Source: an uncultured Bacillota bacterium (GTDB lineage: Bacteria > Bacillota > Clostridia > Acetivibrionales > DTU013). Taken from it: DNA of 64,000 nucleotides. The position numbers and the translations under genes are program-made. The stretch is taken from positions 1,623,552-1,687,551 of the forward strand of contig OW818679.1 of assembly GCA_942493145.1 (NCBI GenBank). Reading direction: 5' to 3'. The notes under the pieces were generated by a model. That model was not told the origin of the DNA. It did not search any database and saw only the letters and a program-made list of their open reading frames with translations. Shown here piece by piece: positions 1,021 through 51,792 of the stretch; the first letter of the stretch is position 1, and each line of letters starts with the position of its first letter.

Positions 1021-2511
1021 CTAAAATTTCTGGGGAAAAGCAGGAAGACCGTCAAATAGAGGATGTCCTTTTTCATTCTTGATTCTCGCTGCTCTCATAG
1101 CCGCCGCCTTGTATCGGTCATAATCGGCCAAACTGGAAATAGAGATTTTTTGGGCTTGTAATGAGCCTTCCGCATGAATGGTAAGAACATCTTCGTAGCA
1201 GGAGGTCAGATCCTTTATCAGCTTCATCATCTTAATTCTGTTTTCAGTTGGGACGCCGTCCTTGCCGCCAAGATATTTATCCAATATATCGTGCGTTTCA
1301 GGGTTCATATAATCTTTGGCCGATGGTACGGTGACCATGATTCCGCCCGTGAGATCCTGAATATATTTGGTTGCCTGATGCCAATTGTCAGCAAAATAGT
1401 ATTTGCAGATGTTGGCAATCATGGGATTTGGATATGAATATCCGGTATCCTCGTCTGTAATACAATGCTCAACAGCAGTGTTTCCAAGGATCTCTACAGT
1501 TTCAGCAAACATAACGAGCTGTGTCAAATATTCTTTAACATGTGGTGCTTTGGAAATCCCGTTATACTCAGCCATTAATATTGCGGATCCTGTAAACAGC
1601 TCGAGTTCTATAGCTTTGTAAGTCTCGGCGCTCAGACGATGGAAATTGGCGAACATAATTGCCACTTCGCCGGCAAATTCCCATTCTCCTTTTAAGAATA
1701 TACGTTCATTCGGAATAAATACATTTTCAAAAGCGACTATAGCGTCGTTGATATAAACGCTGCCAGAAATCGGCTTGTCCATAAGATCAAAATCTATATT
1801 AAGCTCTGGTTCTGTGGAGATCATAGTTATCCCCTCGGCATTAGCAGGAATAGCAAAAGCAACTGCATAGTCCCTGTCATCTTTCTTCATGGCCCGGCAG
1901 GGAGCTACTAAGATTTCGTTGCAGGCGGGAGCTTGACTGATATGAGCCTTGCAGCCGCTGACGATAATTCCATCCGCTCTTTCTTCCACGATACGCACAT
2001 AAAAATCTTTATGCTGTTTCTGCTGTGAAGGAATAAGGCTCCGATCACCCTTAACGTCAGTTAAGGCCATGGCGAATGCCAAATCGTTTTTTTGTAAGTG
2101 TTTACGGTAGGCTTGTATATTTGCGGCATAATGAGTGCCATATTTTTTGTCAACTTTCGGAGCTACTGTTGTAAGTGCGTTCAAACCATCCTTGGCAACA
2201 AATTTTGCCCCTGGGGGCTTGCCAAATGTGGTGCGGGCCCATAGCTTAACAACTTCACGAAGCCTTAGAAGATCCTCTCTGGTGCGTTGCGGTTGTAAAG
2301 AAAAAGCAACTCTATCACCGTCTTTGTCAATATCAGTAAGTAAATCCTGAAATTTCGGATCATTGCTCAGGACGTAATCCATTGCAACCCAATCATTACA
2401 AATGTTCAAAATTGGGTGCGTAGTAACATCTTCTACTCTTTTTCCTTCAATATAGACAACTCTTCCATCTCTAAGGCTTTCCAGGTATTGTTGCGGAGTT
2501 TTAAGTGCCAT
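1021..2511 (-). CDS. 4-hydroxyphenylacetate 3-hydroxylase / 4-hydroxybutyryl-CoA dehydratase (HpaB/AbfD) family protein
   Basis: 496 aa. The N-terminus PQQYLESLRDGRVVYIEGKRVEDVTTHP and the overall length are typical of the family. An RBS (aaggaaaggatg) precedes the ATG. Confidence 0.7.
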   Translation of the reverse strand: MALKTPQQYLESLRDGRVVYIEGKRVEDVTTHPILNICNDWVAMDYVLSNDPKFQDLLTDIDKDGDRVAFSLQPQRTREDLLRLREVVKLWARTTFGKPPGAKFVAKDGLNALTTVAPKVDKKYGTHYAANIQAYRKHLQKNDLAFAMALTDVKGDRSLIPSQQKQHKDFYVRIVEERADGIIVSGCKAHISQAPACNEILVAPCRAMKKDDRDYAVAFAIPANAEGITMISTEPELNIDFDLMDKPISGSVYINDAIVAFENVFIPNERIFLKGEWEFAGEVAIMFANFHRLSAETYKAIELELFTGSAILMAEYNGISKAPHVKEYLTQLVMFAETVEILGNTAVEHCITDEDTGYSYPNPMIANICKYYFADNWHQATKYIQDLTGGIMVTVPSAKDYMNPETHDILDKYLGGKDGVPTENRIKMMKLIKDLTSCYEDVLTIHAEGSLQAQKISISSLADYDRYKAAAMRAARIKNEKGHPLFDGLPAFPQKF

Positions 2512-2906
2512 CTTATTTCATCCTTTCCTTTCAATTTGGTTTTATTTGGTATATTATTAACGCATCGCTTATTAATTATTCTCTTCCAAACATGCGGAAA
2601 AGAGGGCTCGTTATCAAAACGGTACCGCAGCGGTCCATACAGGGACGGGCGAAATACATAGCTCAGGCCGGCGTTCGGTAAGGCTTGTGACTCACATCTA
2701 TTCAGCAAAAATACTTTTGTACTACTTAATGGATTTATTAAAAAATCAGAAAAGACTCCGAAGAGAGAGCTAGAAAGGGCTAAACGTTATATGGATGATA
2801 GCAGCCAGCAGAGCCATGCGGGTTTTTATGGAAGAATTTCTGCAAAGGCAATCAAATGTCGACGAATCATAACTATTAACTATGTTTAATATAGAATACA
2901 TTCATT

Positions 2907-2953
2907 ATACAAAACCCTTATATCAACTATTATTGATATAAGGGTTTTTGTAT
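2907..2953 (-). terminator. Rho-independent terminator after the GcvT-family gene (symmetric, possibly bidirectional)
   Basis: Long stem atacaaaacccttatatcaa / ttgatataagggtttttgtat with a 6-nt loop and A/T runs on both sides, 73 nt downstream of the stop at 3026. Confidence 0.7.
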
Positions 2954-3025: not shown

Positions 3026-4405
3026 TTATTTTTTGTTGATCTGGCAGGGAATTGTATTGACATCCACGTTCTCATTACGGTTTTCGTTCAAATAGGGGAA
3101 ACGGGATACTATAGCACGGATTTCCTTTTGCCGGGTTCCGGGATTTCCCCAGAGGATGGTTACTTCTGTGCCCAATTGGCTGTAAGCAGTATCAATTGAG
3201 CAAAGGGATATCATTTTCCGGTAATAATAGCTGTAATTCCGTCCCGAGCTGATGCCGATAACCTTACCGTCCTTCAACACCTTATCGGCAAAAAAGGTGA
3301 TATTGCCATGCAGCTGTCCGAAGTGGTTCGGCCCCATGGGCATGTAGTGATCGCCAGGCTGGAATTCCGAGGCATATACGTCGATGATGTCTTCAGAATT
3401 CCATTCAAGAGTTACCATTGTCCGGGTAGGATTTGCGGCTTCCTTTTCCAGCGCTGCACGTCCGATAAAATCATGATCAAATTTTACTGCTTTTTCCCAT
3501 CCCAATTCAATGGGATTGCGGTAGCGAAGGGTTATGTCGTCTCCCATGCTGCCCTGAAGAGGGAATGAATATCCTGGCATTTTCAAAAATTGCAGAAGCC
3601 CCGGATCTTCGCCCCATGCATAAGGGAAATGCATAAAGGATTGGGGGAAGCCATCTTCCGTATGGTTCAGCTGATAGGCCAGGAATCCAAGCTTGGTGAT
3701 TCCAAAGGATTCGCCTGCATTCATAAGAGCATTGTATATCATGCGTGCATCCACGGGATTGCAATGGACTTCATAAGCAAGAGTTCCTGCCATACCCAAC
3801 CGTACAATTCGCACCTCAACGTCGTTTATCTTGCTCTTGCGATGCTTTGCGAATTTAATGTCATGCAAGCATTCACCTGTCGCAGTCTCCAATATTTCCA
3901 GCGACCGCGGTCCCCCAAGCTGAAGAGTGCAGAGATCGTTGACAAATTCGCCGGTGATATTGTATTTGTTACTGGTATAGAGCTTGTATGCAGCATAGGG
4001 AGCTAAAAAGAACGTCAGGAATTCTTCTTCATCGATGCGCATCAATACGCCGTGAGCCATAATATTTCCGCTTTCACCACACATAATGCAGTGCTTCAGT
4101 GAGCCGATCGGGAATTTTGCATAGCTGTTGACACTGATATCGGAGAAAAATTTAATTGCATCCGGCCCCTTAACCCGGAAAATGGGAGCTGCATTAAGTC
4201 CGGCATGAAGATAACAGCTTTTTTTCCATGACATAACTTCCTCGCGCCAGCCTTTGTACTCATAAGGTACGGCACAGTCGTAACCAAGGCCATATGCTTT
4301 ACTGTACACATACAGGTCTACCTGAGGGTCGAAGGGTGCAAATACCGGGAGCGGAAAAGATTTTTCCACCTCGGGTCCGGCATAGGATACATCTTTGCTT
4401 TCCAT
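3026..4405 (-). CDS. Aminomethyltransferase (GcvT) family protein, LigM/DesA-like tetrahydrofolate-dependent aryl O-demethylase
   Basis: 459 aa. The segment NPIELGWEKAVKFDHDFIGRAALEKEAANPTRTMVTLEWNSEDIIDVYASEF matches, from memory, the conserved LigM block (VKFDHDFIGRDALE...VTLAWN...IYASLF). RBS aggaggt is present. Confidence 0.65.
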   Translation of the reverse strand: MESKDVSYAGPEVEKSFPLPVFAPFDPQVDLYVYSKAYGLGYDCAVPYEYKGWREEVMSWKKSCYLHAGLNAAPIFRVKGPDAIKFFSDISVNSYAKFPIGSLKHCIMCGESGNIMAHGVLMRIDEEEFLTFFLAPYAAYKLYTSNKYNITGEFVNDLCTLQLGGPRSLEILETATGECLHDIKFAKHRKSKINDVEVRIVRLGMAGTLAYEVHCNPVDARMIYNALMNAGESFGITKLGFLAYQLNHTEDGFPQSFMHFPYAWGEDPGLLQFLKMPGYSFPLQGSMGDDITLRYRNPIELGWEKAVKFDHDFIGRAALEKEAANPTRTMVTLEWNSEDIIDVYASEFQPGDHYMPMGPNHFGQLHGNITFFADKVLKDGKVIGISSGRNYSYYYRKMISLCSIDTAYSQLGTEVTILWGNPGTRQKEIRAIVSRFPYLNENRNENVDVNTIPCQINKK

Positions 4406-4710
4406 AAATTACCTCCTGTTTAAATTAATTCGGGAATATCTTAAATAACTTTTTATATCACCTCAAACTGCAAATGAATTCTTCATGATGAATATCATAT
4501 AATTTGATTCACCGGATTGGAAATACCATTTTTAAATTGGTTATTCAAAAAATGGATTACCAATCGGCACATTGAATTCCCAGTAGCTTTGTAGTAAAAT
4601 CAAACTGCATCAATAATGATTACTTTTAGATTCGTATATGATCCCACTGTGTGGAAGATATTACTTGATTTTTATTGCGTTATTTACAAATTAGAGCAAT
4701 AGGCAAGGTG

Positions 4711-5628
4711 ATGTGTTTGGATATTAACCTTTTGAGGGAATTCGTTTGTGTTGCTAACTGCCTGAATTTTACGATGGCGGCTAAGCAGCTGTATATTTCC
4801 CAGCCCGCGTTAACCCGGCATATCAATGCGCTTGAGGAAGAAATCGGCGTTCAATTGTTGCTGCGTTCCACTCACTCGGTTGAATTGACACCAGTCGCGA
4901 AAACTGTTTTGGCAGACTTCATAGATGTAATTGACAGGTACAATGATCTTAACAAGAAACTGGAATTACTCACAAAAGGACATATAAGTGAACTGCGCTT
5001 CGGTACACTGTATTATGGAATTGTTAACTATTATTCTTATCCGCTGATAAAAACCTTCCGGATCAAATTCCCAGGCATCATTGTGACGGTAGCTTCATGT
5101 CAGCCCTCCCAAATCATAAAAAAGCTTGAAGAGAAAGACATCGATATCGGATTAAGTCTGCACTCACCGTATGCTGAAAGTGCTGAATTTGTATATGTGC
5201 CGTTTGTTCGGGAACCATTATATGCCATTGTTATGCCCACCCATCCGTTTGCCAGGAAAAGAAGCATCTGGGCTGAAGAACTGGCAGAACAACCGGTTAT
5301 AATGATGAAAACTGAAATTGAGTATGAAAAACATATTCGATCTCTTTTCAAGCAGCATAGTCTTGAAATGAAAGATGTAATTCTTACAGATCATATTGAT
5401 ACTATGATAATGACATTGGAAGAAACGAATGCTATTTTTATAGGCACAAAGAATTTAAGTTCATTGCCGAATGCCAATGTTGCTTTTATTGAAATAAACG
5501 ACAAGGATTTTTTCTATGACGTGAGTCTGGTATATAGGGCGAATAATAGAAATCCAGCTATCATGAAGATGGTAGAATGCATTAACGATCTGAATTTTAC
5601 TGCAAACCATAAATCAGACCCGGAATAA
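4711..5628 (+). CDS. LysR-family transcriptional regulator
   Basis: N-terminal HTH LNFTMAAKQLYISQPALTRHINALEEEIGVQLLLR followed by a substrate-binding domain. I start at the ATG at 4711 rather than the track start 4675. It is divergent from the O-demethylase gene. Confidence 0.85.
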   Translation: MCLDINLLREFVCVANCLNFTMAAKQLYISQPALTRHINALEEEIGVQLLLRSTHSVELTPVAKTVLADFIDVIDRYNDLNKKLELLTKGHISELRFGTLYYGIVNYYSYPLIKTFRIKFPGIIVTVASCQPSQIIKKLEEKDIDIGLSLHSPYAESAEFVYVPFVREPLYAIVMPTHPFARKRSIWAEELAEQPVIMMKTEIEYEKHIRSLFKQHSLEMKDVILTDHIDTMIMTLEETNAIFIGTKNLSSLPNANVAFIEINDKDFFYDVSLVYRANNRNPAIMKMVECINDLNFTANHKSDPE

Positions 5629-5772: not shown

Positions 5773-6168
5773 TTATGAGGGCCGGTCTTCAGTGTTCGTC
5801 CACTTCCAGGCATACCTGATAATCAATAGCATCGTTAAAACTTCTATCGTTGCAAAGAATATATAATGAAGGGTCTGCGATCCGCCGGCAATTACAAACG
5901 CAATAGTGATTACGCTTGCAATGATGTTTGACCAGCGATTTGCTCTCTGCTTCAATATCCTTGACAGAAAAATCATAGCAATCGGAATCTCCAATATTAT
6001 TGCAAATACCAACATAATCACTTGCGTGACTTGAACTGGCTTATCGATGTTTGGCAGCATAAAGGAAAAAATGTCCGCTGAAAGTATATTAATCATTACA
6101 AATATCCACAAGGTTGATAGTCTTGCTTTCAGCTGATCCATATTGATGCTCTTATTGTTTGTATTCAT
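5773..6168 (-). CDS. Small polytopic membrane protein of unknown function
   Basis: Four predicted hydrophobic helices. I prefer the ATG at 6168 (RBS aaggagagag about 10 nt upstream) over the track start 6189, which overlaps the upstream stop codon. Confidence 0.6.
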   Translation of the reverse strand: MNTNNKSINMDQLKARLSTLWIFVMINILSADIFSFMLPNIDKPVQVTQVIMLVFAIILEIPIAMIFLSRILKQRANRWSNIIASVITIAFVIAGGSQTLHYIFFATIEVLTMLLIIRYAWKWTNTEDRPS

Positions 6169-6188
6169 TTTATGTTCTCTCTCCTTCA

Positions 6189-6908
6189 TTAATCATTCTG
6201 TTCAATCTTCATAATATTTTCGGTTAAGCCAGGTTTTAGATTTCTTATCCCCCAAATCAACAACCAAAACATAAACAAAAATTCGGCAATTGTTCCCGGC
6301 AATAATAGTATTGTCTCTAGCATTTGGTTCGGAACGAGAAAATGCACGATGACTGACATCAACCCAAATATAGTTTCAATAATAAACAGAACACCGAATA
6401 ATTTAGGAATGAATCCTGATCTATAAATCAATATGCCGAGGGGAAGCACCCAGAGTGCAAAGAAAGCCTGACCGATCATATATCCATGCTCATATAAATT
6501 ATAGAAAAGCATTGCGATGGCCTGACGGCTGTTGGGTTCAATAGTGTTCAGGTAGTCATTTCCGTTTAAAATATAGAGCGGTGCAATTTCGTTCAAAATA
6601 TTAAACAAAAGCAATACGCTCCCGGCAGCCGCAAATACGACCATGACTGCCGCTGTATTTTTATTTACCGAAGCAAGCAGACGGTATAAAGCCAAGGCCG
6701 TGAACAAATAACACAGGGACATGAGGATATCACTTACAATTCCCGTTCGATACAAGAAAGCATTTGATAAAATGTTGTTGGCCGTTACGTTCATATCATT
6801 TGATACGAAAAGTTTTTGGCGGAAAAATATTTCCGCAAACAAACCGAAAACCACCATGAGCAGAAAAAATAGACCTGCAAGCCGTGCAGCATTTTTATTT
6901 GGAATCAT
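6189..6908 (-). CDS. DUF4386-like integral membrane protein
   Basis: 239 aa with about 6 hydrophobic helices. The N-terminus NAARLAGLFFLLMVVFGLFAE is typical of that family as I recall it. Confidence 0.55.
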   Translation of the reverse strand: MIPNKNAARLAGLFFLLMVVFGLFAEIFFRQKLFVSNDMNVTANNILSNAFLYRTGIVSDILMSLCYLFTALALYRLLASVNKNTAAVMVVFAAAGSVLLLFNILNEIAPLYILNGNDYLNTIEPNSRQAIAMLFYNLYEHGYMIGQAFFALWVLPLGILIYRSGFIPKLFGVLFIIETIFGLMSVIVHFLVPNQMLETILLLPGTIAEFLFMFWLLIWGIRNLKPGLTENIMKIEQND

Positions 6909-7404: not shown

Positions 7405-10059
7405 TTATACCAGACCGAGCTCTCTGGCTTTTGCTATTGCTTCTGTTCTTCTCTTAGCTTCCAGCTTGGCAAAAATATTCTGGTTATATCCTTTAATTGT
7501 GCTTAAAGCGAGAAAAAGCTGGTTTGAGATTTCCTGATTTGATAGGCCTTCAACTATAAGACTAAGAACATCAAGCTCCCTTATTGTCAGTGGTTCGATG
7601 AGTTTTTGGTTAGCCGCTTCCTTCTTGGGAAGCGGTACATCATCCTTAACAAACTTTAACCTTGTGTCCTGCGAAAGATGATCAATAAAAGGTCTATAGT
7701 AGTTCTCAAGCTTTGCCAATGCAATAGCTTCATCAAGAAGTGACTGATGAGCTATATGCTGTCCCATAGCTTCCTGCACTTTGCTTGCAAGGACCAGATA
7801 ATTAATGCAATTACCAGTCCTTTTTTGTGTTTTTGCATTTTCTATAAGGCTGTTGCATATGCTTTCAACCCTTTTTAGAATATCAGTATCTGCTTTTCGA
7901 TTAAGAATCTGCTCAACATAGAATCCTGCTGAGAACTCATGGAGATATGGGATACTTTTGGTTTCAAAAGAATTTAACAATAAGTATGAATCTGTATTAA
8001 ACACACCAATTCCTCTTCTAAACTGGATATAAATCTCCATATCATCAAGTGAGAGATAATCCGGAATTGGATTCATAAAGTACTCGTTCTTACTTTCAGC
8101 TATACTTTCAAGTGCCATATCATAGAGTCCTTGGCTCATATAGAGCTTTGCAAAGAGTAAATAATACTTATATTTCCAGTCCATAAGTGCATATTTTTGC
8201 CCATATTCCTTGCTCTTTTTAAGAAGTTCATATACTTCCTGGTTATTTCCTTCAAGATAAGAGATATTGGCTAACCCTAAGTATAAACTAGCCAGGAGAA
8301 TTGGAACTCTGCCAGCTGTATCAACCCGCTTTATTGTTTTTTCAAAGATTGATTTGCCATCCTTCAAACGGCCCATTTGAATACATAATTCGCCGAGGAC
8401 CATGTAGAAGCTGTTAATAGTCAAATCATTTACCTCTTTATTAATATTATGTAGAGCATCGATAATAATTTTCTCTGCAGCTAAAAGATCTCCTGATGAC
8501 CAATGAGCGATGCCTAAAAGCATTGCAATTACAGCCCTTTTGAAGTGTTGATTCTGAGGTGTTTTATTTAAAGCATCTTCGGTATGTATAAATATACCTT
8601 CTATGTCTTCATTAGCAGCCGCAACGTAAGCATTAGCTGCTGCAATTGTCGCTGGGAGAAGTTCATACTGTTTCAAGTCAGCAACAGGAAATTCTACAGG
8701 GTTGTCATGATGCAACTCATACAGTCTTAAAGCCATTTCAAGCCATTTTTTACTTCCTTGAATATCACCAGTATCAATAAGTGCCCAACCATAGCCCATC
8801 GCAAGAACCGGCCTTTTTTCGATTATGCTTTCAGGCAGCTGCTTTGACATTGCCAGCCATGAACTTGCTTGCAACTGAACATCCATCTCTGCCCACCTGC
8901 ATTCGATTAAATCAGCAGCCTGATAATTTGACTGCCCTGCCAGGTAATGATGAATAGCTTCAATAAACATACCTTCTGAATTAAACCAATCCCCAGCTCT
9001 ACAATGCAATTCTTCCACGGTCATGCCACCGATGCTTTGAATATAACCTGGTAATCGTTGCCTGAGCAAATCTCTGAACAAGTGATGGTAGCGATACCAC
9101 TTTCTTTCCTGATCAAGAGGTATAATAAACATATTACTTTGTTTCAAGTGTTCTATCATCTTCATACTGAATCCATTAGCTTCAGACAGGAGTGAATCAC
9201 AGAGATTGAAGGAGAAATAGTCAAGCACAGAGGTTCTTAGCAAAAATCTCTGTGCTTCTTCGTGCTGCTTTTCTAAAACTTCTTCTATCAAGTAGTCCAT
9301 AATATAGTTGTGACTCCCAGAAAATTCTTCAATAAAGCTGTTTATATCATCCAGCCCTTGCATGGACAACGCAGCAAGCTGAAGACCTGCGACCCAACCT
9401 TCTGTTCGATTTGCTAAAAGTACTGCGTGTTCTTCATCTATGATTCGCTGAAGCTGATTGGCCAGAAAAATCTTCACTTCTTCGTTTGTAAATCTAAGGT
9501 CAGCAATGCGAATCTCCAAGAGTTTCTTGCTCAAACGATACTTAGAGAGAGGAAAAGCAGGATCCTCTCGTGTAATCATTACTAATTTCATTTTTGGTGG
9601 CATATGCTCAATTAGTTTCTTAATGAAAGTATCAATCTGTTCGTTTTCTATGACGTGGTAATCGTCAAAGACTAGTACAAACTCCTTGTCAAGCTGATGA
9701 AGCTTCGTTATCAGTGAACGTATAAATGAGATGTACCCAATTGATTGAATGGATTCCAACAGTTGGAGCAAGTCGTCTCCAAAAGCTTTATCCAGACCTT
9801 TGATTCCTTCTATCAAATAGACAAAAAATAGTTGTAAATCATTATCCCATTCATCAAGGGAATACCAAATATGCCTATAATTCCAATGCTCGATCCAGGC
9901 ACTGATGATTGTTGTTTTCCCGGAACCAGCAAAAGCGGAAACCAGGACTATCTCAGACCACGGATTGTCACGAAGCTTCTTCTCGATGTCTTTTCTGGTT
10001 ATAGATAAGGTAGATAATCCAGGCCTATTCAGCTTAGAATGCAATATTTGAAATTTCAT
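7405..10059 (-). CDS. MalT-like STAND ATPase / TPR / LuxR-family transcriptional regulator
   Basis: 884 aa. Walker A is SAFAGSGKTT and Walker B is VLVFDDYH. A long helical-repeat middle region is followed by a C-terminal LuxR HTH (LTIRELDVLSLIVEGLSNQEISNQLFLALSTIKGYNQNIFAKL). Confidence 0.85.
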   Translation of the reverse strand: MKFQILHSKLNRPGLSTLSITRKDIEKKLRDNPWSEIVLVSAFAGSGKTTIISAWIEHWNYRHIWYSLDEWDNDLQLFFVYLIEGIKGLDKAFGDDLLQLLESIQSIGYISFIRSLITKLHQLDKEFVLVFDDYHVIENEQIDTFIKKLIEHMPPKMKLVMITREDPAFPLSKYRLSKKLLEIRIADLRFTNEEVKIFLANQLQRIIDEEHAVLLANRTEGWVAGLQLAALSMQGLDDINSFIEEFSGSHNYIMDYLIEEVLEKQHEEAQRFLLRTSVLDYFSFNLCDSLLSEANGFSMKMIEHLKQSNMFIIPLDQERKWYRYHHLFRDLLRQRLPGYIQSIGGMTVEELHCRAGDWFNSEGMFIEAIHHYLAGQSNYQAADLIECRWAEMDVQLQASSWLAMSKQLPESIIEKRPVLAMGYGWALIDTGDIQGSKKWLEMALRLYELHHDNPVEFPVADLKQYELLPATIAAANAYVAAANEDIEGIFIHTEDALNKTPQNQHFKRAVIAMLLGIAHWSSGDLLAAEKIIIDALHNINKEVNDLTINSFYMVLGELCIQMGRLKDGKSIFEKTIKRVDTAGRVPILLASLYLGLANISYLEGNNQEVYELLKKSKEYGQKYALMDWKYKYYLLFAKLYMSQGLYDMALESIAESKNEYFMNPIPDYLSLDDMEIYIQFRRGIGVFNTDSYLLLNSFETKSIPYLHEFSAGFYVEQILNRKADTDILKRVESICNSLIENAKTQKRTGNCINYLVLASKVQEAMGQHIAHQSLLDEAIALAKLENYYRPFIDHLSQDTRLKFVKDDVPLPKKEAANQKLIEPLTIRELDVLSLIVEGLSNQEISNQLFLALSTIKGYNQNIFAKLEAKRRTEAIAKARELGLV

Positions 10060-10449: not shown

Positions 10450-10965
10450 ATGGGCAGAGGCAATTTGGCAACTGTTTTTGAAGACTATGTTATTAAGCAC
10501 AAAGAGAATCACTACCGGCTTGCTTTTAGTTATGTAAAAAATGCTGATGATGCTTTGGACATTGTCCAGGAATCCATATATAAAGCTATTACAACGCTGA
10601 ATACGCTAAAAAGTCCGGAATATTTAAATACCTGGTTTAAAAGAATTCTGGTGAATACTGCATTGGATTTACTTCGAAAGCAAAAGAAGCTTATTGTGGT
10701 AGAAGATGAAACCTTATCCGGTTTTGATTCAGGTACAACAGATAATTATGAGGATGTAGATTTACATAAAGCGATGGACGATTTACCGGTTCAATACCGA
10801 AGCATAATTGTGTTAAGGTACTTTGAGGATCTGAAGATTGAAGAGATTGCAGATATTTTACATGAAAACGTAAATTCGATAAAAACACGTTTATATAAAT
10901 CACTTAAAATGTTACGGATTCAAATGGATAACGATAGGGTAAGGAGGGCGGCCTATAATGGATGA
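10450..10965 (+). CDS. sigV: ECF-type sigma-70 family RNA polymerase sigma factor (SigV-like)
   Basis: 171 aa with region 2 (DALDIVQESIYKA) and region 4 (LRYFEDLKIEEIADILHENVNSIKTRLYKSLKML). It overlaps the downstream anti-sigma gene by 8 nt. Confidence 0.75.
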   Translation: MGRGNLATVFEDYVIKHKENHYRLAFSYVKNADDALDIVQESIYKAITTLNTLKSPEYLNTWFKRILVNTALDLLRKQKKLIVVEDETLSGFDSGTTDNYEDVDLHKAMDDLPVQYRSIIVLRYFEDLKIEEIADILHENVNSIKTRLYKSLKMLRIQMDNDRVRRAAYNG

Positions 10966-11866
10966 TAAATTATTGAAATTGAAAGATGAATATATGAACA
11001 TACCTATTCCTGCAGAGTTGGACTTTATTGTCAGAAAGGCTTTGAAAGATGGCAGAGAAAACAATCTGAAAGACTTTAAAAGAAATCATGGATTAAAAAG
11101 GTTAAGAATCGCAGCCGCATCAGTGGCAGCCGCATTTATCATACTTACGGCAGGGGTCAACAGCAGCCCGGCGTTTGCGGCAGCGTTGTCGGAAGTACCC
11201 ATAATCGGCAGTCTTGTAAAGGTGCTCACTTTTAGAGAATACACGGTAGATGAAGATAAATACAATATGAATATCAAAGTACCTGCTATTGGTGGTTTGG
11301 AAAACAAAGAATTGGAAAGCAGTTTAAATGAAAAATACCTGGAAGAAAACAAAAAGCTGTATGAGGAATTCATGGCGGATATGGAGGATTTGAAAAAAAA
11401 TGGCGGAGGTAATCTGGGGATGGACAGTGGATACATTGTTGCAACCGATACCGACAGAATACTCTCTATCGGGCGCTATGTCGTAAACACGGTGGGGTCT
11501 TCGTCAACAGTATTCAAATACGACACTGTAGACAAGGTCAATGAAATTCTGATTACGTTGCCGAGTTTATATAAAGACGAGCGGTACATTGACATTATCA
11601 GCGAAAATATCAAGAAGCAGATGATTGAACAGAATAAAGCCGATAAGAGTAAGTTTTATTGGGTTTCCGGCATTGAGCAGAATACGACCATAACGTTATT
11701 TGAAAAAATTTCGAAGGAACAAAGCTTCTATATCAATGCAGAGGGCAAACTGGTCATATCCTTTGATAAATACGAAGTTGCTCCAGGGTATATGGGCATT
11801 GTGCAATTTGTAATACCAACAGATGTCATATCAGATATTTTAGATAGCAACGAATATATAAAATAG
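10958..11866 (+). CDS. rsiV: Anti-sigma factor, RsiV-like (single TM helix with an extracellular domain interpreted as DUF4163/DUF3298-type)
   Basis: The N-terminus KDEYMNIPIPAELDFIVRKAL resembles B. subtilis RsiV. A TM helix (AAASVAAAFIILTAGV) follows. The gene is translationally coupled to the ECF sigma gene. Confidence 0.65.
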   Translation: MDDKLLKLKDEYMNIPIPAELDFIVRKALKDGRENNLKDFKRNHGLKRLRIAAASVAAAFIILTAGVNSSPAFAAALSEVPIIGSLVKVLTFREYTVDEDKYNMNIKVPAIGGLENKELESSLNEKYLEENKKLYEEFMADMEDLKKNGGGNLGMDSGYIVATDTDRILSIGRYVVNTVGSSSTVFKYDTVDKVNEILITLPSLYKDERYIDIISENIKKQMIEQNKADKSKFYWVSGIEQNTTITLFEKISKEQSFYINAEGKLVISFDKYEVAPGYMGIVQFVIPTDVISDILDSNEYIK

Positions 11867-11895
11867 GCTGAACCGATGAAAGATAGGAGGAATGA

Positions 11896-12075
11896 TATTT
11901 TGAAAATAAAGATAATACTAAGAATAATGAAGCAATTGGCTATGAAATAATTAGAGAAATTGCGGAGAATGAGGATAACAATTCGAAGATCTTTTATCCG
12001 CAAATTTCCGGATATAAAGGCCAGCTGTTAATGGATTACATGAATCAAAGCCTGGAAAAAATTGTTGGCGTATAG
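11896..12075 (+). pseudogene. Decayed fragment resembling the start of a DUF4163-type (RsiV-ectodomain-like) protein
   Basis: A start-less frame encodes ...GYEIIREIAENEDNNSKIFYPQISGYKGQLLMDYMNQSLEKIVGV*. A short out-of-frame ATG ORF with an RBS lies just upstream, which suggests a frameshift or truncation. Confidence 0.3.
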
Positions 12076-12219
12076 GATTTTAGGCCCGAGGGTGAATATA
12101 AAAGGATTCCTGGAATCTGTAACACCTGACACATATGCTCTTGAATTGCCGTATTTACTACAATATACTATATTAGAACAGAAGTTACAATTGTAACGGC
12201 AAAGTATATGGAGGACACA

Positions 12220-12336
12220 ATGAAGGTGCTATATCTTACTTCTACAGGGAACAGCTTATATGTAGCAAAGAGAATCGGTGCGCGGTATATCAATCAACAT
12301 ATTACGCTGAAGGACATCATCAATTCAAATAAATAA
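12220..12336 (+). pseudogene. Truncated flavodoxin-like gene (first ~20 residues recognisable, 38 aa total)
   Basis: RBS ggagga precedes the ATG. MKVLYLTSTGNSLYVAKRIG is the canonical flavodoxin-fold N-terminus, but the frame stops after 38 codons. Confidence 0.4.
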
Positions 12337-12416
12337 GATCATAGTCTGCAGCTTCTGAGTATAAAGTCTTCAAGAGATGAACGTACTTAATGATAGACAT
12401 TTATTAAAGGGAGAGG

Positions 12417-12950
12417 ATGAGAATGCCAAAAGCACGAAAAATGCTAAGTGACTGGGACGCACCGTATATTCAGTCGCTTGTGAAATTAATTGAAACACAG
12501 AGCAAGGCAACTCTTGCGATTTGGTCAGTTGATTATGCCGAGCGAGTTATATTGCCGCTGTGGAGCAAGTACTATCCGGATGACCTGCGTCCGCGAAATG
12601 CACTGAATGCCGCTCGCGAGTGGTTATCGGGAGCGATAAAACTGCCGCGAGCAAAAACGGCAATCCTTGTGTGCCATGCGGCCGCCCGTGAAGCCGATGC
12701 GAACCCTGTTGCGCAAGCCGCCGCCAGGGCGAGCGGTCAATCTGCGTCGACTATTCACTCGGCAAGGCACTGTATTGGACTTGCGCTTTATGGAGCGATA
12801 GCGGTTGCGTATAACACTCTCGGAACGAACGCGACCTGGGAGCAGTTGGAGCAATGTGCCGCCGACGAGTGCCAACGTATGCTTGACGCGCTGCGTTCCG
12901 TTGCCGTGGAGAACGAACCAAACCCGGCGAAAATTGACTGGAAATGCTGA
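12417..12950 (+). CDS. Imm-5-like putative immunity protein (all-alpha), orphan
   Basis: The pattern WSVDYAERVLPLW...DLRPRNALNAAREWLSG...CHAAAREA..PVAQAAARASGQSASTIH matches the family as I recall it. GC is high (39/60 hand-counted at 12661..12720). Confidence 0.55.
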   Translation: MRMPKARKMLSDWDAPYIQSLVKLIETQSKATLAIWSVDYAERVILPLWSKYYPDDLRPRNALNAAREWLSGAIKLPRAKTAILVCHAAAREADANPVAQAAARASGQSASTIHSARHCIGLALYGAIAVAYNTLGTNATWEQLEQCAADECQRMLDALRSVAVENEPNPAKIDWKC

Positions 12951-13254
12951 CTATGACTCGCCAAAATTAAAGCACTCCGTATATCGTCGTTATTGATAAC
13001 AAAGGCATTGGAAGGATAGCTGGAGCAGGCCTGTATGGTGTGGTGACCAACTTGCTACTAAATCCATTGTTTTAATAATTTTTTACATATATAATAAATT
13101 GTAAAAAGCTTTAGCTTCAGATATATTCAGTGAGTATTGTTTGCAGGAGCAACCACGAGAATGATTACAAACAAGCTTGGAATGTCGCTGTCCACAATAC
13201 CATTTTATTTTGGGAGTTTTCGAGATCATTAAATTAAGCTATGAGAGGTACTCA

Positions 13255-15858
13255 ATGAATAATAAAGATCAGACCTTTTTCAAAAGTACAGGCTACTCAG
13301 CATTTTCCAACGGCTCACATGTGGCTGCGGTCGATGTGAAGGATGGAAAAATAATAAGGATACGTCCCTTTCGCTACGATTGGAAGTACGATCATGAGCA
13401 TATCAGACCATGGAAGATCGAGGCGCGAGGTAAGACCTTTCATGCCCCAATGAAGACTGCAGTAGGGCCTTTCGGTCTCGGGTATAAGAAGAGTATCTAT
13501 TCACCCAATCGCATATTGTATCCAATAAAGCGGGTAGACTGGGATCCCAAAGGAGAAAGAAATCCCCAGAACAGAGGCAAGAGCGGATACGCTCGTATCT
13601 CATGGGATGAAGCCCTCGATATTATAGAAAGTGAAATCAGACGGGTCATAGACAAGTATGGCCCCACTGCAATCTTAGCACAGGTAGACGGACACGGCGA
13701 GACCAAGATCGTTCATGGTCCGCATGGATGTCATTGGAAGCTGCTGAATCTTCTGGGCGGAGCTACCTTATCGGTTCGCAATGCGGACAGCTGGGAAGGG
13801 TGGTACTGGGGCGCCAAGCATTTCTGGGGGGGGGAACCTTTCGGGTGCATGCCCGAACCCTCCAATCTGTACCTGGACGTGTGCAGGCACAGCGAAATGC
13901 TTCTCTTTGAAGGTTGCGATCCTTGTACAACAACACGAGGGTTCAACAGCGGCGATCATGTCAGCCGTTTCTGCTTCTTCTTCAGAGAGCTCGGTATCAA
14001 ACAAATATACATATGCCCGGATGTGAACTATGGGGCGGCTGTTTTTGCGGATAAATGGATCCCTATTCTGCCGAACACCGATGCGGCTCTGCATCTGGCA
14101 ATTGCATATCAGTGGATCGTAAATGACACCTGGGATAAGGGCTACATTGCTACGCATTCTGTGGGATTTGAAAAGTTTGCCGACTATGTCATGGGCAAGG
14201 AAGACGGCATCCCCAAGACACCCCGGTGGGCTTCGGAGAAGTGCGGCGTTCCCTCGCGGTTGATCAAGGCACTCGCCAGGGAGTGGGCCGTCAAACGTAC
14301 GACGGTAGTTCACGGTTTCGGTGGTCCGTATATCAGGGGGCCTTTTTCTCATGAACCGGCCAGGACTGAGGCAGCCCTCCTGGCCATGCAGGGACTCGGC
14401 AAACCGGGTCAGCATTCGTTCTCCCTCATCAACCGGGCGGTCTTCGGTTCAGAGGATCATCCGGCTTATCCGCCTACGCCGGGCAGCATCATGAATAACC
14501 CGCAGATGAACGTCCGCGCGGCTTATCAGGGATACAACCCTTTCCCCTGGCTAGGACTGCCGAAACAGATGATCCCTAAGACGTTGGTACACGACGCTAT
14601 CCTGAACGGGCATTTCGAGATTCATGGGTCTTCGTTGCAGGTAACCCCGGCCTCGGAGCAGTTTATCAAGTACAAGTACCCAGCCGAAGGATGCTCTCCC
14701 ATCCACATGATCTGGTCTGACACACCGAGCTTGATGTCCTGCTGGAACGATTCCAACAAGATAGCCAAAGCATTTCAGCACGAGTCGATCGAGTTCTTCA
14801 TGATGCAACATCCCTGGATGGAGAACGACTGCATGTTTGCCGATCTCATTCTGCCGGTGAACACCAAGTTCGAAGAAGATGACATCTGCGACGACAACGA
14901 GAGTGCGGCTTTTGAGATGGTGTATCTTGAGAAGAAATGCATCGAGCCGCTCGGCGAATCGCTGAGTGACTATGAGATCGTGTGCAAGGTTGCCGAGAGA
15001 TTCGGTCTGTTGAAGGAATATACGGACGGCAGGTCGGTTGAGGAATGGATCAAGCATGGATTTGACAATTGCGGTGTTCCAGCGAAGGGACTCCTGACAT
15101 GGGAAGAGTTCAAGGAGAAGGAGTACTGGGTGGCTCCGGTCGATCCAAAGTGGGAGACCTATCCGGCCGGTATGTACAGGTTCTATGAGGATCCGGCGAA
15201 CAACCCGCTTTCCACTCCTTCCGGTCTTCTTGAATTTGAGTCTTTGGACTTAAAGAAATTTTTCCCTGAAGATAAAGAGAGACCGCCCGTACCGCATTGG
15301 GTGGAGAAAAGTGAGCTCCACGACGAGCGCATCGGCGGTGAAAGAGCTAAGGAGTATCCGCTGCTGGTCATCAGCAATCATCCGCGCCACAGGATGCACT
15401 CTCAACTTGACGACAACAACTGGTTTCACGAGATCGTTACCTGCAAGGTACGAGGATCAGACGGTTATCTTTATGAGCCTTTGTGGCTGCATCCGTCGGA
15501 AGCGGCCAGGAGGAATATCGTTGACGGCGACATCTGCAAGATATACAACGAGAGGGGCGGAGTCCTGGTAGGTGCCAGGGTCTGGGAAAGAATCATGCCT
15601 GGAGTCGCTTATGTGGAGCATGGGTCGAGGGCGGATTTCATCGTTCCGGGAGAACTGGACCGGGGCGGAGCAATCAACCTCATTACACCTCACAATACCA
15701 CCTCCAGGAATTGCGCGGGCATGGCGTGCAGCGGCTTCCTTGTTGAGGTCGAGAGGGCCGATATGGATGAACTGCGGCGCCAATACCCGGAGGCGTTTAA
15801 CAGACCTTACGACAAGGCTTCCGGGCTGACATTCGACCGGGTGATCATTAAGGGATAG
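13255..15858 (+). CDS. Molybdopterin oxidoreductase, pyrogallol-phloroglucinol transhydroxylase large-subunit-like
   Basis: 867 aa from the ATG at 13255 (RBS gagagg 6 nt upstream; the track start 13177 adds an unlikely leader). VDVKDGKIIRIRP, WKIEARGKTF, ISWDEALD and DSWEGWYWG resemble the P. acidigallici enzyme. There is no RR Tat motif and no N-terminal Cys cluster. Confidence 0.7.
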   Translation: MNNKDQTFFKSTGYSAFSNGSHVAAVDVKDGKIIRIRPFRYDWKYDHEHIRPWKIEARGKTFHAPMKTAVGPFGLGYKKSIYSPNRILYPIKRVDWDPKGERNPQNRGKSGYARISWDEALDIIESEIRRVIDKYGPTAILAQVDGHGETKIVHGPHGCHWKLLNLLGGATLSVRNADSWEGWYWGAKHFWGGEPFGCMPEPSNLYLDVCRHSEMLLFEGCDPCTTTRGFNSGDHVSRFCFFFRELGIKQIYICPDVNYGAAVFADKWIPILPNTDAALHLAIAYQWIVNDTWDKGYIATHSVGFEKFADYVMGKEDGIPKTPRWASEKCGVPSRLIKALAREWAVKRTTVVHGFGGPYIRGPFSHEPARTEAALLAMQGLGKPGQHSFSLINRAVFGSEDHPAYPPTPGSIMNNPQMNVRAAYQGYNPFPWLGLPKQMIPKTLVHDAILNGHFEIHGSSLQVTPASEQFIKYKYPAEGCSPIHMIWSDTPSLMSCWNDSNKIAKAFQHESIEFFMMQHPWMENDCMFADLILPVNTKFEEDDICDDNESAAFEMVYLEKKCIEPLGESLSDYEIVCKVAERFGLLKEYTDGRSVEEWIKHGFDNCGVPAKGLLTWEEFKEKEYWVAPVDPKWETYPAGMYRFYEDPANNPLSTPSGLLEFESLDLKKFFPEDKERPPVPHWVEKSELHDERIGGERAKEYPLLVISNHPRHRMHSQLDDNNWFHEIVTCKVRGSDGYLYEPLWLHPSEAARRNIVDGDICKIYNERGGVLVGARVWERIMPGVAYVEHGSRADFIVPGELDRGGAINLITPHNTTSRNCAGMACSGFLVEVERADMDELRRQYPEAFNRPYDKASGLTFDRVIIKG

Positions 15859-17993: not shown

Positions 17994-18177
17994 ACCCCGT
18001 GTCAAAATTGAGATAAAGTTCAAATCAAGAACAGTATATAACGATAATCACAGCAAGTAAATATGGAATTGTGCTGTAACACAATGAATTCAAAAAAAAT
18101 TCAGGTTATATCCCAGTGTTTTGGTTCATCGTGCACATTATAATATAGATATAATAATACGAAAGCAGGTGAAATAA

Positions 18178-24991: not shown

Positions 24992-25202
24992 GTATTCATC
25001 AGAAACGGAATTATATATTCGATGGAATTGGAAACCACATGACCGCAATTCGGGAGTAAACGTATTACGGCTGATGGTATAAGACGATAATGCATATTGA
25101 GTAAAAATTTTATTACATAAAGTATAAAATATTTGACATGATGAATAAAATATTATACTATATGTATAGATGACGTTATTTATTAAGAATAGGAGTGAAA
25201 AA

Positions 25203-31595: not shown

Positions 31596-31617
31596 GGCAG
31601 AAGCAGGAGCGTGATAT

Positions 31618-51747: not shown

Positions 51748-51792
51748 TCAGAAAATACAGTAGGGAAAATCCACATGAATGGAGTGGCAATT

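What the first reader, a model, noticed from the sequence alone, without database searches (positions are those of the whole stretch)
3026..5628. LigM/DesA-like tetrahydrofolate-dependent aryl O-demethylase with a divergent LysR regulator in a spore-forming Firmicute
The 459-aa GcvT-fold protein shares the block VKFDHDFIGR.ALE...VTL.WN...IYAS.F, which I recall from the Sphingobium LigM vanillate/3-O-methylgallate demethylase. As far as I know, anaerobic Firmicutes normally demethylate methoxy-aromatics with corrinoid multi-component systems. A single-component THF-dependent enzyme here, divergently paired with a LysR regulator, is therefore an unusual route. The 270-bp shared control region contains repeated TGG-N-CCA motifs (for example tggaaatacca and tggattacca) that could be LysR sites.
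Basis: partly seen in the sequence, partly recalled or inferred. Interest (0 to 1): 0.55.

Follow-up and report, generated by a model that had tools for sequence, protein, structure and literature searches.

The report
Folate-dependent aryl-ether C1 transferase with LysR
This gene encodes a folate-dependent enzyme that removes a one-carbon group from plant aromatic ethers; it is real and LysR-controlled, but its nearest studied relatives cleave methylenedioxy rings (BrdA, SesA) rather than methoxy groups (LigM), and such genes are common in anaerobes.

Summary
ORF 3026-4405(-) encodes a 459-aa GcvT-fold protein, a LysR gene lies divergently at 4711-5628(+), and the two TGG..CCA motifs are present.

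The interpretation needs correcting.
- LigM is only a distant relative: 30% identity, and 207 bits against NCBIfam equivalog cut-offs of 580 (LigM) and 800 (DesA).
- The nearest characterised enzymes are tetrahydrofolate (THF)-dependent methylenedioxy-ring "demethylenases". These are BrdA1 and BrdA2 of Sphingobium BD3100 (50% and 45% identity) and SesA (39.5%).
- Bootstrap trees separate the protein from the LigM clade in 200 of 200 replicates.
- It keeps the LigM catalytic tyrosine but carries the His/Arg set proposed as proton donors in SesA, which the LigM clade lacks.

The family is not rare in anaerobes. It occurs in Acetobacterium, Desulfosporosinus, Lachnospiraceae, Coriobacteriales and Dehalococcoidia. 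Four orthologs at 65-71% identity lie within 7 kb of corrinoid-type O-demethylase genes.

The LysR pairing recurs in the closest ortholog. There a perfect 12-bp inverted repeat aligns with window 4538-4562, about 63 bp upstream of the inferred transcription start.

Verdict: a new member of a known enzyme kind with unknown substrate, most likely a methylenedioxy- or methoxy-catechol. Interest is moderate.

The parts
3026..4405 (-). 459-aa GcvT-fold, tetrahydrofolate-dependent aryl-ether C1 transferase of the SesA/BrdA branch (not the LigM/DesA branch)
4412..4417 (-). Shine-Dalgarno sequence AGGAGG, 6 nt upstream of the enzyme gene's ATG
   Evidence: Read directly from the sequence and aligned with the orthologs' ribosome-binding sites.
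4494..4523 (-). Promoter-like site for the enzyme gene: -35 TTTCCA (4523-4518), 18-nt spacer, -10 TATGAT (4499-4494)
   Evidence: 9 of 12 matches. The -10 hexamer aligns with TATAAT in L085. This is a consensus match only; the transcription start is inferred.
4518..4528 (.). Conserved block TGGAAATACCA overlapping the -35 hexamer; candidate LysR activation-binding site
   Evidence: GGTATTTCC is identical in the window (reverse complement) and in L085.
4538..4562 (.). 25-bp imperfect dyad TGGTTATTCA-N5-TGGATTACCA containing T-N11-A; candidate LysR recognition-binding site, centred about 63 bp upstream of the inferred transcription start of the enzyme gene
   Evidence: L085 has a perfect 12-nt inverted repeat, TCTGGTTATTCA-N5-TGAATAACCAGA, at the aligned position. 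The dyad is the only match in the 64-kb window, with 0 expected in 100 shuffles.
4572..4600 (+). Promoter-like site for the LysR gene (TTGAAT, 17-nt spacer, TAAAAT), starting 10 bp after the dyad
   Evidence: 9 of 12 matches; consensus match only.
4711..5628 (+). LysR-type transcriptional regulator of 305 aa, divergent from the enzyme gene (alternative in-frame starts: TTG 4675 and TTG 4717)
   Evidence: It is 48% identical to the divergent LysR next to the closest enzyme ortholog.
2911..2948 (.). 16-pair hairpin 78 bp downstream of the enzyme gene's stop codon; terminator-like, making the gene monocistronic

Best explanation
The gene encodes a single-subunit, tetrahydrofolate-dependent enzyme that removes the ether-bound one-carbon unit from a plant-derived aromatic and passes it to THF, leaving a catechol-type product. 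It belongs to the SesA/BrdA branch of the LigM/DesA/SesA/BrdA group. The most likely chemistry is therefore methylenedioxy-bridge cleavage giving 5,10-methylene-THF. O-demethylation of an ortho-methoxy phenol, giving 5-methyl-THF, is the main alternative. In this anaerobic spore-former the C1 unit would enter the folate C1 pool. The polyhydroxy-benzene product could be degraded by the pyrogallol-phloroglucinol transhydroxylase homologs encoded 9 kb away. The gene is monocistronic. It is probably activated by the divergent LysR protein, bound to a conserved dyad near -63 and a second conserved block over the -35 hexamer, in response to an unknown aromatic inducer. Shown here: fold, family branch, conserved residues, conserved operator-like DNA and gene contexts. 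Inferred: substrate, C1 product, inducer and LysR binding.
For: Identity: BLASTP gives BrdA1[BD3100] 50% over 448 aa (E 1e-151), BrdA2 45%, SesA 39.5%, BrdA[BD7100] 36% and LigM 30%. All of these except LigM are THF-dependent demethylenases (PMC5547118). Phylogeny: in NJ trees of 140 and 60 sequences the window clade is monophyletic in 98% of replicates. The window clade plus BrdA1/2 is set apart from LigM, SesA and BrdA-BD7100 in 85%, and from the LigM clade in 100%. Residues: H105, R123, R202 and H248 match the proposed SesA proton donors H82, R100, R179 and H225. K104 replaces SesA R81, as in all BrdAs. E212 and Y244 match SesA E189 and Y221 and LigM E215 and Y247. Structure: the AlphaFold model has pLDDT 89.3, and its best PDB match is LigM (TM 0.77), ahead of true T-proteins. 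Context: the P0003, P0004 and P0016 (Desulfosporosinus) orthologs, 67-71% identical, have URO-D and B12-binding genes within 7 kb; P0014 (65%) and P0005 (69%) have URO-D genes only. Amidohydro_2, transhydroxylase-like, BKACE and thiolase genes each occur in one or more of these loci. The window's own transhydroxylase homolog is 57% identical to the one beside two GCV_T genes in L081. Nine aerobic homolog loci carry PurU (8), FolD (3) and intradiol dioxygenases (4), and MTHFR is not among the recurrent families. Regulation.
Against: No member of the window's own clade has been characterised, and 50% identity does not transfer substrate or even C1 oxidation state. The characterised demethylenases were all found by screening for methylenedioxy degraders, so the branch may also contain O-demethylases. 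The LigM catalytic tyrosine is conserved, which is compatible with methyl transfer. The BrdA and SesA reference sequences were rebuilt from OCR of a supplementary PDF, and LigM from a PDB alignment, so identities are approximate. Trees are NJ, not ML. The SesA 'proton donors' are predictions quoted in PMC5547118, not proven catalytic residues. In the window itself no corrinoid, folate or decarboxylase gene is adjacent to the enzyme gene. LysR binding and promoter positions are inferred from consensus matches and a two-genome footprint.
Confidence: 0.55

Rival explanations
1. It is a LigM/DesA-type aryl O-demethylase. It transfers a methyl group from vanillate, syringate, 3-O-methylgallate or a similar methoxy-phenol to THF, forming 5-methyl-THF.
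For: The best NCBIfam models are DesA and LigM, both at about 1e-61. LigM is the only solved close structure. The catalytic Tyr247 equivalent, Y244, is invariant in the window clade. Orthologs lie in O-demethylation and gallate/pyrogallol-type clusters. The transhydroxylase homolog in the window would consume a trihydroxybenzene such as that derived from syringate or gallate.
Against: The score of 207 bits is far below the 580 and 800 equivalog cut-offs. Identity to LigM is 30% against 50% to BrdA1. It never groups with the LigM clade in 200 bootstraps. LigM-clade-invariant Gln93 is His here, W217 is His, W256 is Phe and F393 is Gly. By the HMMER alignment, LigM Arg122 aligns with Leu134; my memory, not a tool result, is that Arg122 is the carboxylate-binding residue.
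Confidence: 0.3
2. It performs some other THF-dependent C1 transfer, for example N- or S-demethylation of an alkaloid, a quaternary amine or DMSP-like compound. Alternatively, it works as an accessory folate-binding component of the neighbouring corrinoid methyltransferase systems rather than on its own.
For: The GcvT fold supports diverse C1 donors, including DmdA, DMGDH, SoxA and Tdm, all seen as weaker hits. In L087 the gene lies between two URO-D methyltransferase genes with gaps of 2-13 bp.
Against: Scores to DmdA (44.6 bits; cut-off 410), Tdm and SoxA are far lower than to the aryl-ether enzymes. Every characterised relative above 35% identity acts alone on an aryl ether. In the window and in L084-L086 the gene has no corrinoid neighbours.
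Confidence: 0.1
3. It is an ordinary glycine-cleavage T protein (GcvT).
For: JGI automatic annotation of many homologs reads 'glycine cleavage system aminomethyltransferase T'. The Pfam GCV_T domain is present.
Against: It scores 36.8 bits against TIGR00528 (cut-off 235.85) and 66.5 bits against NF001567 (cut-off 300). It is about 100 aa longer than T proteins and shares 18-21% identity with them in structural alignments. No gcvH or gcvP gene is nearby.
Confidence: 0.01

Closest known systems
BrdA1 and BrdA2 of Sphingobium sp. BD3100, THF-dependent berberine methylenedioxy-ring demethylenases (Takeda et al. 2017, PMC5547118)
   Same: Identity is 50% and 45% over about 445 aa, with the same length and domain order. 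Shared motifs include WK..CYLHAGLN, GNIMAHG, GPRSLE, MAGTLAYEVHG, NHTE.GFPQ, FDHDF.GRAALE and ARFPYL....N..IDVNTIP. They form a sister group in NJ trees with 85% bootstrap support. The enzymes are single-component and THF-dependent.
   Different: The host here is an anaerobic spore-forming Firmicute rather than an aerobic sphingomonad. The window clade is separate (98% bootstrap). The substrate is unknown and berberine is not implied. The divergent LysR and its operator are specific to the window lineage.
SesA of Sinomonas sp. no. 22, sesamin methylenedioxy-ring demethylenase (Kumano et al. 2016 PNAS; paper not held, cited via PMC5547118)
   Same: Identity is 39.5%. The proposed proton donors H82, R100, R179 and H225, and the THF contacts E189 and Y221, are all conserved as H105, R123, R202, H248, E212 and Y244.
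   Different: SesA R81 is Lys here and D95 is His. SesA sits in a different sub-branch of the tree. That the SesA product is 5,10-methylene-THF is from my own knowledge of the paper, not from a tool.
LigM (vanillate/3-O-methylgallate O-demethylase) and DesA (syringate O-demethylase) of Sphingobium SYK-6
   Same: The same three-domain GcvT-like fold (Foldseek TM 0.77), the catalytic Tyr247 equivalent, Glu215, and the FDHDFIGR / VTL.WN / YAS.F block.
   Different: Identity is 30%. NCBIfam gives 207 bits against cut-offs of 580 and 800. Gln93 is His, Tyr111 is Arg, Trp217 is His, Thr251 is His, Trp256 is Phe and Phe393 is Gly. It falls outside the LigM clade in 200 of 200 bootstraps.
Corrinoid-dependent O-demethylase systems of anaerobes (URO-D-type methyltransferases plus a B12-binding protein, as in Acetobacterium and Desulfitobacterium)
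   Same: The same physiological task: removing ether-bound C1 units from aromatics and passing them to THF. The closest orthologs of the window gene are physically clustered with such systems.
   Different: The protein families are unrelated, and those systems are multi-component and cobalamin-dependent. No such genes were found among ORFs of 150 aa or more in the 64-kb window.

Membership tests
LigM, vanillate/3-O-methylgallate O-demethylase (NCBIfam NF047885 equivalog) | Whole-protein score at or above the curated cut-off of 580 bits | tested here: not met
   207.5 bits.
LigM, vanillate/3-O-methylgallate O-demethylase | Catalytic tyrosine (Tyr247) | tested here: met
   Y244 aligns with LigM Tyr247 (chain residue 251 of 5tl4_A). 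It is invariant in 28 of 28 and 15 of 15 window-clade sequences.
LigM, vanillate/3-O-methylgallate O-demethylase | LigM-clade-invariant pocket and folate residues (Gln93, Trp256, aromatic residue at 393, Trp/Phe at 217) | tested here: not met
   The window has H105, F253, G388 and H214. The LigM clade has Gln at position 93 in 12 of 12 and Trp at position 256 in 11 of 12. The structural roles of these residues are from memory of the 5TL4/5X1I papers, which are not held.
LigM, vanillate/3-O-methylgallate O-demethylase | Groups phylogenetically with LigM/DesA | tested here: not met
   Separated from the LigM clade in 200 of 200 NJ bootstraps.
DesA, syringate O-demethylase (NCBIfam NF047633 equivalog) | Score at or above 800 bits | tested here: not met
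   207.3 bits.
SesA/BrdA-type THF-dependent methylenedioxy-ring demethylenases | Closest characterised homologs and tree placement | tested here: met
   50%, 45%, 39.5% and 36% identity to BrdA1, BrdA2, SesA and BrdA-BD7100. On the SesA/BrdA side of the LigM split in 100% of bootstraps, and with BrdA1/2 in 85%.
SesA/BrdA-type THF-dependent methylenedioxy-ring demethylenases | SesA proposed proton donors R81, H82, R100, R179, H225 and THF contacts D95, E189, Y221 | tested here: met
   The equivalents are K104 (as in all BrdAs), H105, R123, R202 and H248, plus H118 (as in BrdA1), E212 and Y244. Six of the eight residues are identical.
SesA/BrdA-type THF-dependent methylenedioxy-ring demethylenases | THF-dependent conversion of a methylenedioxy aromatic to a catechol | not testable with these tools
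   Requires an enzyme assay.
Glycine-cleavage T protein GcvT (TIGR00528 / NF001567) | Score above the cut-off (235.85 / 300 bits) | tested here: not met
   36.8 and 66.5 bits.
DmdA, DMSP demethylase (NF009133) | Score at or above 410 bits | tested here: not met
   44.6 bits.
LysR-type transcriptional regulator with a divergent target gene | N-terminal HTH_1 domain plus LysR_substrate domain | tested here: met
   6.7e-20 and 6.9e-25.
LysR-type transcriptional regulator with a divergent target gene | Interrupted dyad with T-N11-A near -65 of the target promoter and a second site near -35 | tested here: met
   The dyad at 4538-4562 is centred about 63 bp upstream of the inferred start. A conserved block at 4518-4528 lies over the -35 hexamer. 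Both are conserved in L085. The promoter itself is only a consensus match.
LysR-type transcriptional regulator with a divergent target gene | Protein binds the site and responds to an inducer | not testable with these tools
   Requires EMSA, footprinting and expression data.

The most novel reading that the evidence does not exclude
The window gene represents a large, uncharacterised set of SesA/BrdA-type enzymes in strict anaerobes: acetogens, sulfate reducers, Dehalococcoidia, and gut Lachnospiraceae, Coriobacteriia and Erysipelotrichaceae. These would provide an oxygen- and cobalamin-independent way to cleave methylenedioxy bridges, and possibly particular methoxy groups. The resulting methylene-THF would feed directly into the Wood-Ljungdahl or folate C1 pool. 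They would complement the corrinoid O-demethylases with which they are clustered, and could account for anaerobic or gut demethylenation of lignans and alkaloids.
Probability: 0.4. Interest if true: 0.65.

Novelty: new member of a known kind. Interest (0 to 1): 0.42.

Why it matters
Aryl-ether cleavage is the entry step for microbial use of lignin monomers, lignans and many alkaloids. In anaerobes it is attributed to multi-component corrinoid systems. This gene and its relatives show that a single-protein, folate-only enzyme family is widespread in anaerobes and is repeatedly clustered with the corrinoid systems. That family has so far been studied only in aerobic sphingomonads and actinomycetes. 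If the anaerobic members are demethylenases, they would cover a bond type that methyl-transferring corrinoid systems are not known to cleave. They would also supply methylene-THF directly to C1 metabolism. For annotation, these proteins should be labelled neither 'glycine cleavage T protein' (the common automatic label) nor 'LigM'. The conserved LysR operator gives a defined, testable regulatory unit and a possible biosensor for the unknown aromatic inducer.

Tried and rejected
- An exact look-up of the window protein's contig returned nothing. Cluster look-ups gave no names, so the organism could not be named. The single genome-contig scan did not return the window's own genome.
- The LigM structure paper (two identifiers tried) and the SesA paper are not held. 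Residue roles for LigM therefore rest on memory plus clade conservation. SesA residues rest on what PMC5547118 quotes.
- Reading PMC8091115 showed that DmtS is VanA-like, so it is irrelevant here.
- Literature searches for demethylenases or LigM-like enzymes in anaerobes or Firmicutes found no characterised case. Absence from this library is not proof of absence.
- Linkage to the HpaB/AbfD-like gene downstream (1021-2511) was rejected. A hairpin and a gene remnant lie between the two genes, and no homolog locus has such a neighbour (0 of 35; none or 52-55).
- A LysR neighbour is not a family-wide feature (2 of 35 loci). The L088 LysR is only 23% identical, so it is not orthologous. A search for LysR orthologs found none at E<=1e-40, so the footprint rests on one other genome.
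- Rfam found no riboswitch or other RNA family in the window.
- A first bootstrap run with Biopython BLOSUM distances timed out. It was redone with Kimura-corrected p-distances.
- One container alignment failed on a coordinate error.
Full report
**What is in the sequence**

ORF 3026-4405 on the minus strand is intact and encodes 459 aa. An AGGAGG ribosome-binding site lies 6 nt upstream of its ATG. A 16-pair hairpin at 2911-2948 follows the stop codon, so the gene is monocistronic.

On the plus strand a 305-aa LysR-type regulator begins at ATG 4711, which is the start annotated at NCBI. In-frame TTG codons at 4675 and 4717 are alternatives. Pfam finds HTH_1 (6.7e-20) and LysR_substrate (6.9e-25) in it.

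A GerA/GerAC/spore-permease operon at 28798-32718 supports a spore-forming Firmicute. The organism could not be named.

**Family assignment**

Pfam finds the GCV_T folate-binding domain at 4.9e-30. The best NCBIfam models are DesA and LigM, but at 207 bits against equivalog cut-offs of 800 and 580. GcvT (36.8 and 66.5 bits), DmdA (44.6), Tdm and SoxA score far lower.

LigM is the only close solved structure (E 2e-45, about 30% identity). An AlphaFold model built on a 28-sequence alignment has pLDDT 89.3 and pTM 0.87. Its best Foldseek match in the PDB is LigM (TM 0.77, 27-28% identity), ahead of true T proteins at 18-21% identity.

The protein is therefore not a GcvT, a DmdA or a sarcosine/dimethylglycine enzyme. 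It belongs to the ~460-aa aryl-ether group. It fails the curated LigM and DesA thresholds by a wide margin.

**The nearest characterised relatives are demethylenases**

Takeda et al. 2017 (PMC5547118) describe THF-dependent enzymes of this group that open methylenedioxy rings. These are the BrdA proteins, which act on berberine, and SesA, which acts on sesamin.

I rebuilt their sequences from the paper's supplementary alignments. The text is OCR, so the identities below are approximate. LigM residues 35-456 came from the PDB alignment. BLASTP against the window protein gives:

| Reference enzyme | Identity to window protein |
|---|---|
| BrdA1, Sphingobium BD3100 | 50% over 448 aa (E 1e-151) |
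| BrdA2, Sphingobium BD3100 | 45% |
| SesA, Sinomonas no. 22 | 39.5% |
| BrdA, Rhodococcus BD7100 | 36% |
| LigM, Sphingobium SYK-6 | 30% |

An NJ tree of 140 family members places the window protein with Desulfosporosinus, Paenibacillus, Pseudofrankia and MAG sequences. Dehalococcoidia and Syntrophorhabdaceae sequences are sister to that clade, and the BrdA1/BrdA2 group comes next. LigM lies in a distant clade.

In 200 bootstrap replicates on 60 sequences:
- the window clade is monophyletic in 196;
- the window clade plus BrdA1/2 is separated from LigM, SesA and BrdA-BD7100 in 170;
- it is separated from the LigM clade in 200.

**Residues**

PMC5547118 quotes the proposed SesA proton donors as R81, H82, R100, R179 and H225, and the THF contacts as D95, E189 and Y221. 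The mapping is as follows:

| SesA residue | Window residue | Residue at the aligned position in LigM and its clade |
|---|---|---|
| R81 | K104 (as in every BrdA) | K92 |
| H82 | H105 | Gln93 in 12 of 12 |
| D95 | H118 (as in BrdA1) | D106 |
| R100 | R123 | Tyr, Gly or Ala |
| R179 | R202 | R205 (R in 7 of 12) |
| E189 | E212 | E215 |
| Y221 | Y244 | Y247 |
| H225 | H248 | Thr, Ala or Ser |

Other LigM-clade residues are also replaced: Trp217, Trp256 and the aromatic residue at 393 become H214, F253 and G388. The LigM catalytic tyrosine (Tyr247) is conserved as Y244.

The active site is thus of the SesA/BrdA type but retains the tyrosine. The structural roles of the LigM residues come from my memory of the 5TL4 and 5X1I papers, which the library does not hold.

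**Distribution**

The family is large. There were 1495 hits at E<=1e-10 in the 90%-clustered database. There were 222 clusters at 50% identity with E<=1e-30. At least 594 loci were found in species-representative genomes.

Many of these are strict anaerobes:
- Acetobacterium wieringae and A. carbinolicum (three paralogs within 12 kb in the latter);
- Eubacteriaceae, Lachnospiraceae, Oscillospiraceae, Erysipelotrichaceae and Solobacterium;
- Coriobacteriales, Syntrophomonadaceae, Syntrophorhabdaceae, Dehalococcoidia and Paratissierella.

The premise that such an enzyme is unusual in anaerobic Firmicutes therefore does not hold for gene distribution. I did find no paper in the held library that characterises an anaerobic member.

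**Gene context of relatives**

Contexts of the closest orthologs:

| Ortholog (identity to window) | Locus | Neighbouring genes |
|---|---|---|
| P0003 (70%) | L081 | URO-D, DUF1638, B12-binding, PucR regulator, TRAP transporter, a second GCV_T, Amidohydro_2, transhydroxylase-like molybdoenzyme |
| P0004 (71%) | L082 | ABC transporter, two URO-D, B12-binding, MarR |
| P0016, Desulfosporosinus fructosivorans (67%) | L083 | Two URO-D, Pterin_bind, B12-binding, MFS |
| P0014 (65%) | L087 | URO-D, GCV_T, URO-D in one tight operon, then ECH, thiolase, SDR, BKACE |
| P0005 (69%) | L088 | LysR, Amidohydro_2, LigB, MarR, URO-D |
| P0018, Paenibacillus peoriae (65%) | L084 | No such genes |
| P0020 (67%) | L086 | No such genes |

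Across 16 anaerobe loci the commonest neighbours are PucR-type regulators (14), FAD-binding flavoproteins (5) and MalT/LuxR regulators. In nine aerobic loci they are PurU (8), FolD (3) and intradiol dioxygenases (4). MTHFR is not among the recurrent families there. That weakly favours methylene-THF rather than methyl-THF as the product.

In the window itself the adjacent genes are unrelated to C1 or aromatic metabolism. However, 13177-15858 and 15869-16699 encode homologs of both subunits of the Pelobacter pyrogallol-phloroglucinol transhydroxylase (E 2.7e-146 and 2.1e-52). The large subunit is 57% identical to the L081 protein that sits beside two GCV_T genes. PucR and MalT-type regulators are also present.

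Overall, the enzyme is associated with anaerobic degradation of ether-substituted polyphenols. It accompanies corrinoid O-demethylases rather than replacing them.

**Regulation**

A LysR neighbour is not general in the family: it occurs in 2 of 35 loci. It is conserved, though, in the closest ortholog. L085 (enzyme 71% identical) has a divergent LysR that is 48% identical over its full length (E 1e-105). No other homolog of this LysR reaches E<=1e-40 in 5.8 billion proteins.

Aligning the two intergenic regions shows one conserved block. Window 4518-4566 is about 80% identical to L085, against about 40% in the flanks. In L085 the block contains a perfect 12-nt inverted repeat, TCTGGTTATTCA-N5-TGAATAACCAGA. 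The window equivalent, TGGTTATTCAAAAAATGGATTACCA at 4538-4562, is the only match in 64 kb at up to 3 mismatches, with none expected by chance.

A promoter-like site for the enzyme gene has its -35 hexamer TTTCCA at 4523-4518 and its -10 hexamer TATGAT at 4499-4494. The -10 hexamer aligns with TATAAT in L085. This places the dyad centre near -63 and the second conserved block (TGGAAATACC) over the -35 hexamer. That is the classic recognition-site plus activation-site layout of LysR activators (established knowledge of the family).

A promoter-like site for the lysR gene starts 10 bp beyond the dyad. Promoter positions and LysR binding remain inferences.

**Conclusion**

The gene encodes a stand-alone, THF-dependent aryl-ether C1 transferase, probably under LysR control. 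It belongs to the SesA/BrdA (demethylenase) branch, not the LigM/DesA branch. I estimate about 0.8 confidence for the branch assignment. For the chemistry I estimate about 0.5 for methylenedioxy cleavage giving methylene-THF, and about 0.3 for O-demethylation giving methyl-THF. The substrate is unknown.

It is a new member of a known enzyme kind. The wider point of interest is that this family is abundant, unstudied and clustered with corrinoid O-demethylases in anaerobes.

Noticed in passing
window 13177-15858 (+) and 15869-16699 (+): These encode homologs of both subunits of the Pelobacter acidigallici pyrogallol-phloroglucinol transhydroxylase (PDB 4v4c chain A E 2.7e-146, chain B E 2.1e-52). 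They are followed by a divergent PucR-type regulator (16791-18023, -) and an Abhydrolase_3 esterase (18178-19071). The large subunit is 57% identical to a homolog that lies beside two GCV_T-like genes in metagenomic locus L081. They may form a downstream pathway for the product of the GcvT-like enzyme.
   Followed up: partly
window 1021-2511 (-): This 496-aa HpaB-family protein has as its best solved relatives 4-hydroxybutyryl-CoA dehydratase AbfD (1u8v, E 8e-73) and vinylacetyl-CoA isomerase (6vjr), not the flavin monooxygenases. By eye it seems to lack the N-terminal Cys pair that binds the Fe-S cluster in AbfD, but I did not check this by alignment. It is not linked to the GcvT-like gene in any relative examined.
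   Followed up: partly
window ~2690-2872 (+): Between the hairpin and the AbfD-like gene there are short, frame-broken reading frames. One fragment (..NTFVLLNGFIKKSEKTPKRELERAKRYMDD.., by-eye translation, not verified with the translate tool) resembles the C-terminus of a RelE/HigB (Gp49-like) toxin. It looks like a decayed toxin-antitoxin remnant.
   Followed up: no
window 7405-10059 (-); locus L005 3458-6343, 10004-12751, 12789-15512: An 884-aa MalT-like ATPase/TPR/LuxR regulator lies 3 kb from the enzyme gene. In the Syntrophorhabdaceae locus L005, three homologs (25-31% identity) flank two GcvT-like genes. This type of regulator may be a recurrent partner of the family in some anaerobes.
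   Followed up: partly
loci L018, L020, L021 (Acetobacterium); L014 (Tractidigestivibacter); L081: Several anaerobes carry two to three divergent paralogs of the GcvT-like enzyme within 10-12 kb. PucR-type regulators are usual neighbours, and the Acetobacterium loci also carry an OYE-type flavin reductase. These look like dedicated polyphenol or aryl-ether loci in acetogens and gut bacteria.
   Followed up: partly
locus L087 5873-9815: Directly after a URO-D, GCV_T, URO-D operon come genes for enoyl-CoA hydratase, thiolase, an SDR, a BKACE-family enzyme and 3-hydroxyacyl-CoA dehydrogenase. From my own knowledge, this set resembles the anaerobic phloroglucinol ring-cleavage pathway.
   Followed up: no
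window 5773-6189 (-) and 6189-6908 (-): Two membrane proteins of unknown function (DUF6326 and DUF4386) form an overlapping pair immediately downstream of the LysR gene on the opposite strand. They could be a transporter for the regulated pathway, but there is no evidence either way.
   Followed up: no
window 10450-12950 (+): An ECF-type sigma factor, a DUF4179/DUF3298 (RsiV-like) putative anti-sigma factor and an Imm5-like immunity protein sit between the MalT-like regulator and the transhydroxylase genes.
   Followed up: no
window 27109-28566 (-), 25170-25718 (+), 51775-52464 (+), 54449-55399 (+): Four sizeable ORFs (485, 182, 229 and 316 aa) have no Pfam match at the thresholds used.
   Followed up: no
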